Assembly (NCBI GenBank): GCA_965223705.1
Contig: OZ245015.1
Coordinates: forward strand, 3,360,001 to 3,424,000
Reading direction: 5' to 3'
Length of the DNA stretch: 64,000 nucleotides
DNA from: Myxococcota bacterium
GTDB lineage: Bacteria > Myxococcota_A > UBA9160 > UBA6930
Shown here piece by piece: positions 24,001 through 30,000 of this stretch. How positions within the stretch are numbered: the stretch's first letter is position 1; every line of letters starts with the position of its first letter. Position numbers: made by a program.

Positions 24001-27000
24001 GCAGGAGACCATGCTTCGGTGGCTCGTTGACATCGAACAGATCAAGCAGCTCAAGCACCGCTATTGTGCGTACTGCGACGAACAATACGACCCCGAAGGC
24101 ATCGCCGGCCTCTTCGCCGAAGACGGCGTGTGGGAAGGCGGGCCTTTCGGCCGCGCGGAGGGCCGCGACGGGATCCGCCAGTTCTTCGGTGACGTGTCGA
24201 AACAAGTCGAGTTCGCGAATCACTACGTGACCAATCCGATCATCGACATCGACGGTGATTCGGCGACTGGACGTTGGGACTTGTGGCAGCCGATGGTGAT
24301 GACCGAAGGTCCCGCCGCTCTCTGGCTGGTCGCGAAGTACCGAGAACAATACGTGCGATCCGGAGATCAGTGGTTGTTCCGACTCCTTGAGCTCGACGTC
24401 AAGGCGCTGTCGCCCTACGAAGAAGGTTTCGCGAAGCAGCGCCTGATCGAAACGGAGGCATCGTGACGAAGCAGCAAGCGATCGACACCGTCAACCAGTT
24501 TATGAAGCTCCTCCTCACGGATTTTCCGAAGTGCTTGAAGATGCTCTCCGACGACTTCGTGTGGGAGAACTTCTTGCCTTCACATGTTCCGTTCGGCGGA
24601 CGCTACGAAGGCGCTTCCGGCCTTCAGAAGTACCTCGAACAACTGTCAGCGACTTGGGTGATCGGAGAGCTCGTGTTTCTCGATTTCATCTTCGATTCCG
24701 AAACGAGCATCTTGGCAGCGACCGGTGTCGAGAAAAACGGCAAAGCTCTGTCGACCGGACGCACTTGTGACATGCCGTTCGTCTGGGAGTTTCGGTTTTC
24801 CGAGGATGGCAAGATCACCTACCTCCGCGAATACAACGACACCGCTTCGATCGGCGGCACGTTCGACGCGGCCGGTGCTTGAGCGGAGGAGCCCATGACG
24901 CAACTCACTCGAATCCCTCGGTCCGAGCTCACCCCGGAACTGGTTGCGCTTCACGACCAGTTGACGAAGGAAGGCGTTGATGCGCGGTTTGTCGAAGCGG
25001 GCGCGAACGCTCCCGAACTCCTCGATTGGTACTTCAACAGCTTCTACGGAAAGGTCTTCTACGATGGCCGTGTCGACGCTCGAACGAAGGAGCTGTTGCG
25101 CCTCAAGCTGTCGAAGACCCACGGCTGCTTTCTCTGAAACCGCGTGAACACTGCCTCGGCGAGGCAGCACGGAGTGACGCAGGCTCAGATCGATGCTCTC
25201 CCCGACGACGTCGAGAACGAGGCATTCTCGGAGAGAGAACGGGCGGTCCTACGAGCGGCCGAACAGATGGTCCTCACCAACCTCCACGGCATGCTCGAGG
25301 ACGGACATTACCAGGCGCTGAAGAAGCACTTCTCCGACGGCGAGATCTTCGAGCTGGGCATGGTGATGGCCGTTCTCTGCGGTTTTGCCAAGTTCTTGTT
25401 CTGCTTCGACTTGGCTGATCGCGAGGACACCTGCCCGATCCACCCAGGCGCGTAGTTCGGGCTACGCGGACGCGGCCTTCGACAACCACTCCCGGATGGC
25501 TTCTCCGATTTCGTGAGGACAGTCCTCCTGGAGAAAATGGATGCCGGGGAGCGTGATCTCCTGCTGGTTGGGCCAGGCCCGACAGATCTCCCGCGGCCGA
25601 CCGACCAGGATCGCGCCGGGTTCCGCATTGATGAACAGTTTCGGGAACGCCGCGGTATTCATGAAGTCGGCGTTTGCCGCGACGGCTTCCACCACGTCCG
25701 TCGGCTGCCCCGCTAGCGGGATCTGGCGCGGCCAAGTCAGCGTCGGCCGCCGGGATTCTCCGGCTTCGGTATACGGGGCGCGGTAGACGTTCATCTCCTC
25801 GTCGCTGAGCTTGCGCTGGATCGCGGCGGGTAGAACTTGTTCGATGAACACGTTTTGCTCGAGGACCATGGCCTCTCCGGCATTCGAACGAAAGCCTTCG
25901 AAGAGCCCCACGAACTCCGGCGGAAAATCGGACCACTCGAGAGGGGTCACGATGGCCTCCATGTACGCAATGGCTCGAACGCGATCGGGGTGTTGTCGTG
26001 CCCACTCAAAGCCGAGGGCCGAGCCCCAATCGTGAATGACCAGCGTCACCGGACCTTCCGGTACCAGCGCATCGATGAAGCCGTTCAGGTAGTGACGATG
26101 CTGCGCGTACGTATAGGAGAACACGGAGGGCTCGGGGAGCTTTTCAGAGTCACCCATTCCGACAAGATCCGGGGCGATGCAACGGGCCCGATCCGCCAGG
26201 TGGGGCATGATGTTTCGCCACAGGTAGGACGAGGTCGGGTTGCCGTGTAGAAACAGGATCGGTTCTCCGGAACCGATCTCGACGTAGGCCATCTCCAGTC
26301 CGTGGACGTCGACCTTTTGTTTCTTCGCGGGGTGGTTCGTTTCGATCGATCGGGCATCGGACATCGGGTTCCTCACTTCGCGAAACCAGGGTTGTGCGTT
26401 CGCCGTATACTCTAGGTTACCGGGCCCGAGGAGAACCACATGAGTGAGAAACTGCGTTTCTTGCACCATCCCGCCTCACAACCGTGCCGAGCGGCGCGCC
26501 AGTTCCTAATCGAAAACGACATCGCTCATGTCGATGAGATCATCGATATCACGACGAACATCAACGAGACCCAAGAATTCAGAGATCGCTACAACCCGAC
26601 GGGGCAAGTGCCTATTCTTGTCGACGGCGACTTCGTGGTGTGGGAGAACGTCGCGATCGGGCGGTACTTGGATGAAAAATTCGAGTGCGAAAGCCACTGG
26701 TTCGGTTCCAGCCTGGAAGAGCGGGCGAAGATCAACCAATTCGTTCAGTGGTACGCGTACACACTGCGACTCGGCGGGGGGGCGTTCCACTGGACGATCT
26801 TTGCTCCGATGATCTATGGGCCGGACAAAGATTTCACCGCGGAACGGAGGAAGGGATATCACGTCCTCTACGAGTCTCTGGAGGTGCTAGAGAACTACTG
26901 GCTGAAGAGCAGCGACTACTTGTGCGGCGAAGAAGTGAGTTACGCGGATCTAGCCGCTTACCACGAGCTGGTGTCGCACGACGCGGGGAACATCATTCCC

Positions 27001-30000
27001 GAGAACGTCTGGAAAAAGCATGGCCGCATCACCGCGTGGTTCGAGCGCATGTCGGCGCGGCCGGCGAGCAAGGCGGTGAGTGCGTGGCAGTACGAGACGA
27101 TCCGCAAAGTGCTCGCCGGAGAGATCTCCGTGGAATTCAATCGGCGCACCGCCGTACTGAAAGGAACGGAGGCTTTTGGGGGGCACAACAACGGCATCCC
27201 TCATCTCGGCGAAGAGCGGGACTACCTCGCCGAGGTGGAAGCCTAGTTTCATCCGGTTAGTCGCCGGGGTGGAGGCCTGGTTTTCAGCCGGCAAAGCGCG
27301 GCTCTGGCACGCCTCGTACGCCCAACCCGTAGATCGCAAAGACCGATCCGGCTTGAAACTGCGGCTTCACTTGCTTCGCGAACCGATCGTGCACGGCCGG
27401 GTGCTTGACGCGTGCCATCGAAGTCACGAACAAGATGTCGAGGTCAGGGCCGCCGAAGATCACACTGGTCACGTTGCGCACGGGCATGCCGATGATGCGG
27501 TCGACCTCACCGTCGGGCGTGTACCGAACCAGCTCTCCGCCGATCACCATCGCGTTCCAGATGCAGCCGTCGGAATCGACGGTTGAACCGTCGTACAAAC
27601 CCGCCATCTCCTTGCTCGAGGCGAAGACCCGACGGTTCGAGACCTCGCCGGTCTCGATCGCATAGTCGTAAGCCCACATCTCCTCGCGGAACGTGTCCGC
27701 GAAGTAGAACGTTTTGTCGTCTGGGCTCCAGCAAGGACCATTCGAGCAAATGATCCCGTTGTCGACCCGGGTCGTCGTGAGATCCGGATCCAGGCGCCAC
27801 AACCCACAGAGGTCGAGCTCCTCCTTGTCGTCCATGCCACCCGCGAAGAAGCGGCCACGTCGATCGACCTTTCCGTCGTTGAGTCGGGTTCGCGGCTCGT
27901 CGGCTTCGATTTTCGTGATTAGCTCGGGTTCACTTCCCGAGTCGAAATCGAAGAAATAGAAACCGTCGTTCATCGCGAGGACAGCGCCGCCCGACTCGCG
28001 TAACACCATGGCCCCCACGTCTTGAGTCGTCCGCCAAGAATCGATCTTTCCGGTCGAGAGTTCGAGGCGCCAGAGCGACGGATTTCCGACGCGGGGTCCC
28101 GTCCCGTCGACCCAGTAGAGTCGGTTCTCGCGGTCGTCCCAAATCGGGCTCTCCCCGAGGTGGTTCTGACACGGGACGAGGGTTTCGATGCGGACGGTCA
28201 CCACCGACCTCCTCTCTCGGGCTTTTGAGAGCCCGTCCTATACTAGCGGTCGGCACGACGCGACCCACGACCGCGTATACTGTGCCCCCTAAAGGGAGGA
28301 ACCCATGAAACTTCACGATTGTCAGATGGCACCGAACCCCCGCCGCGCCCGGATCTTCCTCGCAGAAAAGGGGATCGATTGCGAGATGGTTGAGCACAGC
28401 ATTCTCGGCGGTGAAACGAACGCCGGCGACTACCTAAAGATCAACCCATGGGGCACCGTACCGGCCCTCGAGCTCGACGACGGCACCGTCATCCGCGAAG
28501 CACCGGCGATCATGCGCTACCTCGAATCCCAACACCCGGAGCCCAATCTGATGGGCAGCGATCCGCGCGAGGCCGCGGAGATCGAAGCTTGGGAGCGATT
28601 CTCCGAGCAGAACGGTATCGGTGCGATCGGCGAGTTCTTTCGCAACCAGACCGATGCGCTCAAGGGGCGCGGGATGCCCGGCCCGACGAGCCTGGAACTG
28701 ATTCCCGGCCTGGTGGAGCGTGGCAAGAAGCGCGCGGGCTGGTTCTATACCGAGCTCGACAAGCGCCTCGGCGAATCGGAATACCTGGGCGCGGGTCGCT
28801 ACACCGCGGCGGATATCACCGCTCAGTGCGCAGTCGACTTCGGCAACGCCGTGGGCATGGGGATACCCGACGCCTGCAAGAACGTCGCGCGCTGGCACGC
28901 GGCGGTGAGTTCGCGACCGAGCGCCGCGAGCTAAGCCGCCTACGGCTTCCCTCTGCCCGAGAGCTCCCTCGCGGCATCGACGTCGATGCTGCGAAGATGC
29001 AGGTCTCGCTGTGGGAACGGAATCTCGATATCGGCTTCCGTGAGGGCGCGGTTGATCTCCGTGTTGATCCGTGACTGTACGACGTACCAGTCGTCGTAGT
29101 CCGCGATCCAAACGCGAAGTTCGAAATCGAGCGAGCTATCCCCGTGCCCGCGAAACAGCGCCACCGGCGACGGGTAGCTGAGCGATTTTTCTTCGCGTTC
29201 GGCAACGCCCCGGAGAAGCTCGAGGACGCGGTCGGGCTCTGTTCCGTACTTCACGCCAATGGGGATGTCGACCCGACGCGTTTTGTCGGAAAGCGTCCAG
29301 TTCGTCACTTGCTGCGAAATGAGATCCGCATTGGGAACAATGATCTCGGAGCCCTGATACGTTCGAAGGGTGCTCGATCGGATTCCGATACGACGGATGA
29401 CGCCCAGTTGATTCCCCAGGTCGATCGTGTCTCCGACTTGGATCGGACGTTCAAAGAGCAGAATGATTCCGCTCACGAAGTTGTTGACGACATTCTGCAA
29501 GCCGAAACCGATTCCCACGCCGAACGCTCCAGCCAACAAAGCAAACCGGCTCAGGTCGATGCCGGCAGCCGCCACGGCGAGAAGAAAGCCCAGGAACAAG
29601 ATCACGTACTGTGCCGTGGCGCTAACCGCGTGGGGTATCCCCCGTCCGGTCCGTATTCTCGGGAAGACGTCTTCCATCAAGAGGAAGCGCACGACCCGGG
29701 AGAAGACGATGGATGCGGCGATCGTGATCGCGAAAGCCGCCACGTCTCCGAGCGACACCGCGGCCTCACCCCAAGTGACGGATGTCGTCAACGCCGTTCT
29801 GGCCGCGGCGACCACGGGATCTCGGACAGCGAACGACCCCAGGCTCAGGTAGGCCCACAGCAGCGCGCCCGCGATCGAGATCCCTCTGAGGATCCAACCC
29901 ACGGCGACGCCGCGACGGGCGCGCAGGAATTGGAGTTTTTGTGCGCGCGCAGTCCGCGTACCCACATCGACTGCGGTCCACAGAATCTGCACGCCGGCGT

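What a model noticed while it worked through the whole genome (the two positions that open the first line are those of the whole stretch)
25462..27246. A third branch of dichloromethane dehalogenase DcmA, back to back with a haloalkane dehalogenase
g03250 is a DcmA-family glutathione transferase that falls inside the clade spanned by the two proven DcmA types, as a third branch of mostly unnamed metagenomic proteins. It lies head to head with a LinB-type haloalkane dehalogenase, with no annotated dcmR/B/C beside it, in a non-proteobacterial host.
Evidence so far: 63% to Methylophilus DM11 and 60% to Methylorubrum DM4 DcmA over the full length, next Swiss-Prot hits 32%; DM11 and the DM4-type are 57% alike. 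Tree of 35: DM11 group, 288-aa DM4-like group and the g03250 group (8 rows, support 100) form one clade at 100. N-terminal HPASQPC with the serine is the same as in DM11. About 25 close homologues at 70-85%. g03249 is 57% to LinB. GSH formaldehyde genes g00556, g00181 present. All studied degraders have dcmRABC and are proteobacteria (PMC7760279, passages, call 78).
(Added by a program. Inside this text positions count along the whole contig: contig position 3,360,001 is position 1 of the stretch shown here. "Call 12" and the like, gene names such as g00115 and contig names such as C1 are that model's own, and its searches are not shown. The text may have been shortened before it was handed on; [...] marks where a part breaks off. 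The agent that wrote the report below was given it as the finding of a first reader that could run no searches.)

Follow-up and report, generated by a model that had tools for sequence, protein, structure and literature searches.

The report
Third branch of dichloromethane dehalogenase
This gene encodes a glutathione enzyme from an untested third branch of the bacterial dichloromethane-degrading family; many relatives keep the family's usual partner genes, so the branch probably breaks down natural dihalomethanes, while the neighbouring haloalkane dehalogenase looks like a one-off neighbour.

Summary
Confirmed. Window 26440-27246 (+) encodes a 268-aa GST, 62% identical to DM11 DcmA and 60% to DM4 DcmA; the DM4 group is now anchored by a named row. 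Three trees give a third branch, sister to the DM4 group (98/84, 99/90), although an AU test does not exclude a place just outside the two proven types (p 0.075). New support: 16 of 27 third-branch loci carry a dcmR-like (HTH-MEDS) and/or dcmB-like (CmcJ) gene; where both are whole the order is dcmR-dcmA-dcmB, as in DM4. This copy is solo: no MEDS gene in the genome, a dcmB-clade gene 1 Mb away. The head-to-head haloalkane dehalogenase is real but lies beside 0 of 77 related loci. The host looks myxococcal, but named branch members are Alpha-/Betaproteobacteria, several already labelled dichloromethane dehalogenase. A dcmA in Binatota and the dibromomethane-origin idea are in print. Best reading: a GSH-dependent dihalomethane dehalogenase feeding FrmA, FghA and formate dehydrogenase (0.8); no assay.

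The parts
26440..27246 (+). Third-branch DcmA-family glutathione transferase, 268 aa (P0001)
   Evidence: 62% DM11, 60% DM4, 62% MC8b DcmA; trees; model pLDDT 88, best fold matches human GSTT1/T2; dN 0.09-0.15 with dS 1.5 or saturated against 11 relatives
26467..26487 (+). HPASQPC motif with Ser13, equal to Ser12 of DM11 counted without Met; Phe7 stands where DM11 has Tyr6
   Evidence: Alignment; Ser13 invariant in 45 rows; the title of Vuilleumier and Leisinger 1996, seen in a reference list, says Ser12 but not Tyr6 is required
26767..26793 (+). RLGGGAFHW motif (residues 110-118), shared with cultured DcmA; the sister family reads RRGAGAFFY
   Evidence: L111, G113, H117, W118 in all 22 third-branch rows and 0% of 66 sister rows
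26365..26439 (.). 75-bp divergent intergenic region with a ribosome site for each gene and a lone TATACT hexamer; lacks the promoter block of dcmR-linked third-branch loci
   Evidence: no sigma-70 consensus site found; promoter block in 6 of 107 stored loci, not in the loci holding this region
25462..26364 (-). LinB-type haloalkane dehalogenase, 300 aa (P0002), with N42, D112, W113, E136, H276; an extra copy, not the family orthologue; neighbour only
   Evidence: NF002938 over cut-off; LinB structures top PDB hits; relatives' main HLD is 67-80% to the genome's other copy at C1:4095119-4095979 and 55-62% to this one. Pentad roles recalled from LinB.

Best explanation
The gene is a solo copy of a third, mostly uncultured branch of DcmA, and works as a glutathione-dependent dihalomethane dehalogenase. 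Inferred steps, from the known DcmA chemistry: Ser13 helps activate GSH; the thiolate displaces one halide from CH2X2; the S-halomethylglutathione hydrolyses to S-hydroxymethylglutathione or formaldehyde plus a second halide. The host could oxidise this through FrmA, FghA and formate dehydrogenase, so the gain is most likely energy or detoxification; growth on the substrate is not shown. The natural substrate is more likely CH2Br2 or another natural dihalomethane than industrial CH2Cl2 (inferred, about 0.6). The copy was probably acquired sideways long ago and has no dcmR. The haloalkane dehalogenase is a local neighbour in a catabolic region, not part of the module. Shown: sequence, tree position, motifs, neighbourhoods of relatives, purifying selection, host genes. 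Inferred: activity, substrate, role.
For: 62% and 60% identity to the two assayed types, which are 58% alike. Third+DM4 starred in two careful trees, 98/84 and 99/90, DcmA clade 100/100 and 99/99. 123 of 143 columns shared by 9 named DcmA rows are kept, and 22 of the 29 that are rare in the sister family. dcmR-like gene in 11 of 27 and dcmB-like in 13 of 27 branch loci, either in 16, both in 8; 14 of 22 after collapsing near-copies. 3 of 4 further Hyphomicrobiales genomes with the branch show dcmR-dcmA-dcmB. The same two neighbours occur near the locus 96% identical to DM11 DcmA (L027), and the dcmB-like gene follows a DM4-group gene (L073). One branch locus has frmA directly downstream (L019). 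Host has gshB, frmA, fghA, FDH, a ClC and an XoxF-like enzyme. Not found in 60 relatives or 400 phylum genomes searched. PMC8913905 (passage) states higher kcat and lower Km for CH2Br2 than CH2Cl2.
Against: No assay of any branch member was found. AU test does not reject the branch lying outside DM4+DM11 (p 0.075). 11 positions are branch-specific and 7 of 29 diagnostic columns differ in this protein. This copy lacks dcmR and the conserved promoter block; 6 of 16 branch loci with both flanks of 500 bp or more have neither partner. The partners are not exclusive: dcmR-like genes lie beside 4 of 39 sister-family loci, and dcmB-clade genes occur in 2 family genomes without a dcmA hit. dcmR and dcmB were identified by family and position, not against named DM4 proteins (one search listed none among its top 120). 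Composition gives no sign of recent transfer: GC3 0.76 like its neighbours. Habitat evidence for the third branch is thin: one record title (L002, 'seacave') and taxon names.
Confidence: 0.8

Rival explanations
1. About the pairing, compatible with the best explanation: the GST and the haloalkane dehalogenase form a co-acquired, co-regulated halocarbon-scavenging pair driven from the shared 75-bp region, one taking dihalomethanes and the other longer haloalkanes.
For: Head-to-head across 75 bp. The HLD is an extra copy that the family does not share, from a small subfamily of 9 clusters at 72-79%. With 2 HLD genes in a 4.56-Mb genome, adjacency by random placement is unlikely (my estimate about 0.1%, chosen after the fact).
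Against: HLD beside 0 of 77 DcmA-family loci, including 0 of 21 third-branch loci with 500 bp or more upstream, and 0 of 9 further loci. HLDs are common: 15 of 32 family genomes have one. The region is full of unrelated catabolic genes. The neighbourhoods of the 9 closest HLD clusters could not be read.
Confidence: 0.2
2. The solo copy, or the whole branch, has shifted to another small electrophile (a halomethyl compound, monohalomethane or other formaldehyde donor), with dihalomethanes at most a side activity.
For: Branch-specific residues such as R137, H141, A245, G247, H255; loss of dcmR in this copy and its nearest locus L005; residues 242-255 model poorly, so the substrate pocket cannot be judged.
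Against: Keeps 22 of 29 DcmA-diagnostic columns; strong purifying selection against dcmR-linked relatives; it is as close to each proven type as they are to each other.
Confidence: 0.13
3. It is a general detoxifying theta-like GST with no special link to halomethanes.
For: The genome holds at least 11 GST-like matches, three more within 10 kb. Pfam and NCBIfam give only generic GST hits.
Against: DM4 and DM11 DcmA also get only generic NCBIfam hits. The family is separated by a long branch from other GSTs, which are 39% identical or less. MEDS-regulator and CmcJ neighbours recur.
Confidence: 0.05

Closest known systems
DcmA of Methylophilus leisingeri DM11 (UniRef100_P43387, 267 aa)
   Same: 62% identity, near-equal length, HHPASQPC, identical YTLRLGGGAFHWTIFAPMIYG stretch, C-terminal AVLKGTE.
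   Different: Separate branch; Phe for Tyr6; T220 and G247 where named DcmA rows have N and S; myxococcal host; no dcm neighbours at this locus.
DcmA of Methylorubrum extorquens DM4, Hyphomicrobium denitrificans, GJ21, MC8b (UniRef100_P21161 group, 288 aa)
   Same: 60-62% identity; likely sister branch; many third-branch loci have the divergent dcmR and downstream dcmB order described for these strains (PMC7760279, PMC9320726, passages).
   Different: Lacks the 9-residue N-terminal extension and the 3-residue insert after IYG; dcmC not tested; host has no mch or hps.
DcmA-like sister family (about 50% identity, 68 rows, uncharacterised)
   Same: HHPxSQPC and YNPTGQVP; sometimes beside a dcmR-like gene (4 of 39) or frmA (6 of 39).
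   Different: RRGAGAFFY in place of RLGGGAFHW and a different C-terminal lid; lies outside the DcmA clade.
Human theta-class GSTT1-1 and GSTT2-2 (PDB 2c3n, 2c3q, 4mpf, 1ljr)
   Same: Best PDB hits by sequence and by fold, TM about 0.75; SQPCRA motif. GSTT1 also turns over dichloromethane (recalled).
   Different: 24-27% identity; eukaryotic detoxification enzymes.
LinB haloalkane dehalogenase, subfamily HLD-II (PDB 1cv2), for the neighbour
   Same: 376 bits over residues 14-295; pentad motifs present.
   Different: An extra copy in a small unnamed subfamily; substrate untested.

Membership tests
DcmA dichloromethane dehalogenase | Full-length similarity to assayed DcmA at or above the level between the two proven types | tested here: met
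   62% and 60% against 58%
DcmA dichloromethane dehalogenase | One clade with DM4 and DM11 DcmA, apart from the sister family and other GSTs | tested here: met
   100/100, 99/99 with distant outgroup
DcmA dichloromethane dehalogenase | Nested between the two proven types (phylogenetic bracket) | tested here: inconclusive
   Third+DM4 at 86 (quick), 98/84 and 99/90; AU p 0.075 for the alternative
DcmA dichloromethane dehalogenase | Catalytic serine (Ser12 of DM11) | tested here: met
   Ser13, invariant in 45 rows; requirement known to me from a paper title
DcmA dichloromethane dehalogenase | Theta-like GST fold | tested here: met
   Model pLDDT 88; top Foldseek hits GSTT1/T2
DcmA dichloromethane dehalogenase | GSH-dependent conversion of dihalomethane to formaldehyde and halide | not testable with these tools
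   Needs an enzyme assay
dcmRABC cluster (this locus) | Divergent dcmR upstream and dcmB downstream of dcmA | tested here: not met
   No MEDS hit in the genome, 95% complete; dcmB-clade gene at C1:2387784-2388734. The locus is not filed as a dcmRABC cluster.
dcmRABC cluster (third branch in general) | dcmR-like and dcmB-like genes beside dcmA | tested here: met
   Either in 16 of 27 loci, both in 8; identified by family (HTH_17+MEDS; NF041278) and position
dcmRABC cluster (third branch in general) | dcmC present | not tested
   No DcmC sequence was available from a tool
HLD-II haloalkane dehalogenase (neighbour) | Family model over cut-off and Asn, Asp, Trp, Glu, His pentad motifs | tested here: met
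   NF002938 421.7 over 241; N42, D112, W113, E136, H276 (roles recalled)

The most novel reading that the evidence does not exclude
The third branch is the common natural form of DcmA: an old dcmR-dcmA-dcmB module of uncultured, probably marine Alphaproteobacteria that consumes algal dibromomethane or diiodomethane and has spread as solo copies to other phyla. The industrial DM4 type would be a late offshoot, and the branch an unrecognised biological sink for ozone-relevant dihalomethanes. It does not need the HLD pairing.
Probability: 0.3. Interest if true: 0.75.

Novelty: new variant of a known kind. Interest (0 to 1): 0.5.

Why it matters
DcmA has been studied in two sequence types from dichloromethane degraders, and DCM is described as mostly industrial (PMC2680597, passages). 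A third branch that keeps the regulator and dcmB, with 26 clusters and 444 member sequences in one search (a count biased toward the query), offers natural enzymes and a natural sensor for testing the published but, as far as I found, untested idea that DcmA evolved on dibromomethane (PMC8913905). It also means that markers designed on DM4-type dcmA may miss much of the family (inference). This particular solo copy matters less than the dcmR-linked members.

Tried and rejected
HLD as a conserved partner: 0 of 77 and 0 of 9 loci. Window neighbours (AhpD-like, SnoaL, SMP-30, second GST) beside relatives' HLDs or DcmA loci: none. dcmR elsewhere in the genome: none by tblastn or PF14417. Recent transfer by composition: GC3 0.76, like neighbours. 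Sigma-70 promoter scan 25300-27400: 0 sites. Plasmids: no close relative, best full-length hits about 28%. H4MPT (mch) and RuMP (hps) markers: not found in G000, G433, G434; the serine cycle was not tested. Sequencing runs: no RNA holder listed; 4 holders from one sample, coded, so no habitat. Named DM4 DcmB: not reached, as the list stopped at 120 rows of 70% or more. Bin18 dcmA sequence: not in the 9 supplementary files held, so its branch is unknown; the paper's extended data may bear on this. Papers on active-site mutants: search returned nothing usable. The gene-tree search did not finish its careful run; I used the quick tree and then smaller careful trees (40 and 38 chosen rows). The one genome-contig scan used the single protein and found only 2 true relatives.
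Full report
Observation. The window holds two divergent genes 75 bp apart: a 268-aa GST at 26440-27246 (+) and a 300-aa haloalkane dehalogenase at 25462-26364 (-). The longer 335-aa frame from 26469 overlaps the GST start and is unlikely; each short start has a ribosome site. Logan contigs of four runs from one sample cover the region at roughly even depth, and one contig spans both genes; this is probably the source sample and only argues against a misassembly. 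The GST is under strong purifying selection: dN 0.09-0.15 with dS 1.5-1.8 or saturated against 11 related loci.

Family placement. A protein search returned 194 relatives, 120 listed. Cluster look-up named the anchors: P0041 is DM11 DcmA (UniRef100_P43387), and the cluster of P0049 holds DM4 (P0124), H. denitrificans, GJ21, MC8b and Ancylobacter DcmA. Global identities are 166/267 to DM11, 161/268 to DM4 and 154/267 between them. Careful trees on 40 and 38 chosen rows gave each of the three groups full or near-full support and joined third with DM4 at 98/84 and 99/90, the second rooted on 9 distant GSTs with long branches. The AU test did not reject DM4+DM11 as one clade (p 0.075). So the branch is firmly in the DcmA clade and probably, not certainly, inside the bracket. 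A profile search of 1.84 billion representatives found 21 proteins at E 1e-30 or better; the family is compact and other GSTs are 39% identical or less.

Residues. Of 143 columns identical in 9 named DcmA rows, the protein keeps 123; third-branch rows keep 118-129 and sister rows 87-106. Of 29 such columns rare in the 66 sister rows it keeps 22, including RLGGGAFHW and WQY. Ser13 equals DM11 Ser12; Phe7 replaces Tyr6, which the title of the 1996 mutagenesis paper calls dispensable (seen only as a reference title). The model (pLDDT 88) matches human GSTT1/T2 best; residues 242-255 are unresolved.

Neighbourhoods, the main new evidence. Scans gave 77 usable loci: 27 third, 4 DM4, 7 DM11, 39 sister (two weak hits dropped). 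An HTH_17+MEDS gene occurs in 11 of 27 third-branch loci (11 of 21 with 500 bp or more upstream), divergent as in DM4. A CmcJ/NvfI gene (NF041278) occurs in 13 of 27 (11 of 19 with 500 bp or more downstream). Either occurs in 16 and both in 8; after collapsing near-identical genes, 14 of 22 groups have either. [quoted passage not shown] Both neighbours also occur near the locus 96% identical to DM11 DcmA, and the CmcJ gene follows a DM4-group gene. I could not compare them with named DM4 DcmR or DcmB. Among 401 genomes of the order of G433, 8 had a hit: 6 third-branch (2 already held, 1 frameshifted) and 2 sister, none DM4-type; 3 of the 4 new third-branch genomes show dcmR-dcmA-dcmB. The dcmR-dcmA spacer holds a conserved block containing TTGACA, the -35 hexamer listed for DM4 and DM11 dcmA (PMC9320726, passages). 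Against over-reading: 6 of 16 third-branch loci with both flanks have neither partner, sister loci have the regulator in 4 of 39 and frmA in 6 of 39, and CmcJ genes of this clade occur in two family genomes with no dcmA hit.

This copy. It is solo. The genome (95% complete) has no MEDS match. A CmcJ gene inside the dcmB-like clade lies 1 Mb away at C1:2387784-2388734. The gene was not found in 60 relatives or 400 phylum genomes searched, which suggests lateral gain; GC3 is like its neighbours, so the gain is not recent. The host's L23 and EF-Tu cluster mates are labelled Myxococcales and Deltaproteobacteria, in line with earlier scan notes calling it Myxococcota-like. It has gshB, frmA, fghA, formate dehydrogenase, formate-THF ligase, a ClC protein and an XoxF-like dehydrogenase, but no mch or hps. 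PMC4271186 (passages) shows that dcmA alone gives activity in naive hosts but poor growth, so a solo gene can work, and growth cannot be assumed.

The haloalkane dehalogenase. It is a real LinB-type enzyme and an extra copy: 15 of 32 family genomes have an HLD, whose main copies are 67-80% identical to the genome's other HLD and 55-62% to this one. It belongs to a small subfamily of 9 clusters at 72-79%, whose context I could not read. No HLD lies beside any of 77 or 9 further DcmA-family loci. The surrounding 64 kb is rich in catabolic genes: three more GSTs, a CarAa-like oxygenase, an extradiol dioxygenase and hydrolases. Local co-use is possible (0.2) but a conserved module is not supported.

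Mechanism. Most likely, by homology to DcmA: GSH attacks CH2X2, the S-halomethyl conjugate (named for DCM in PMC4271186) hydrolyses, and the formaldehyde equivalent goes through FrmA, FghA and FDH to CO2. Confidence in dihalomethane activity is 0.8. The preferred substrate is unknown; dibromomethane is my best guess at about 0.6 for a natural bromo- or iodo-compound. Marine origin of the branch rests on one record title and on taxon names only.

What is known. Eight searches of the open library showed no description of this branch or of its dcmR-dcmA-dcmB loci; subscription papers, including the 2011 DCM review, are not searched. Three things lower novelty. Several members are already labelled dichloromethane dehalogenase at NCBI or JGI (Rhodospirillaceae, Hyphomicrobiales, Alphaproteobacteria MAGs). 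PMC8262859 (passages) reports dcmA in one Binatota Bin18 genome. [quoted passage not shown] The bioRxiv mec paper (10.1101/2021.08.30.458270, passages) names marine systems and biomass burning as the perceived main non-industrial DCM sources and reports dcmR homologues beside two marine mec cassettes. Two earlier scan notes describe the sister family on other genomes.

Verdict. Real, correctly assigned, and a new variant of a known kind. The valuable part is the branch with its regulator, which makes the natural-substrate question testable. The HLD pairing and the host's phylum add little. Interest 0.5.

Noticed in passing
window 24895-25455 (+): AhpD/CMD-family gene with one in-frame TGA at 25135-25137 in a CxxU motif; reads through to 186 aa, PF02627 over cut-off; genome has selA. 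Likely selenoprotein that callers would split. The hairpin after the TGA is not better than shuffles.
   Followed up: partly
window 36362-40757: CarAa-like Rieske oxygenase (E 1e-150 to carbazole 1,9a-dioxygenase) with a meta-cleavage-type hydrolase, an extradiol dioxygenase and a second hydrolase: a possible carbazole or N-heteroaromatic pathway in a myxococcal host.
   Followed up: partly
window 34879-35865 (-): GST-like protein with an FSICSQK N-terminal motif; best PDB hits GDAP1. The motif recalls PcpC/LinD reductive dehalogenases (from memory, untested).
   Followed up: partly
L053, L056, L059, L062 and other sister-family loci: The ~50% sister family lies beside a dcmR-like gene in 4 of 39 and frmA in 6 of 39 loci, which hints at formaldehyde-yielding chemistry there too.
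   Followed up: partly
L013:7120-8034, L015:8195-9124, L021:5988-6932, L036: Nitrilase-family genes near dcmA in 4 third-branch loci; PMC7760279 notes a nitrilase near dcmRABC in DM4 and MC8b.
   Followed up: no
L006, L014, L033, gene upstream of dcmA: Peroxiredoxin-like ORF with an in-frame stop in a U-x-x-C-like position, directly upstream of a solo third-branch dcmA; possible selenoprotein. The three loci are near-copies.
   Followed up: no
L001:5616-5642 and L002, L010, L013, L015, L018: Conserved block in the dcmR-dcmA spacer that looks like overlapping divergent promoters and may hold the DcmR operator.
   Followed up: partly
G000:C1:2387784-2388734: CmcJ-family gene inside the dcmB-like clade, 1 Mb from dcmA; the clade has at least 120 clusters at 70% or more to the L002 protein, more than the third-branch DcmA clusters found.
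   Followed up: partly
G000, e.g. C1:2325085-2326662: 13 PQQ alcohol-dehydrogenase-family matches, 12 over cut-off, one XoxF-like.
   Followed up: no
L033; G437:C3:275544-276262: Third-branch dcmA copies that appear frameshifted; sequencing error or decay not resolved.
   Followed up: no
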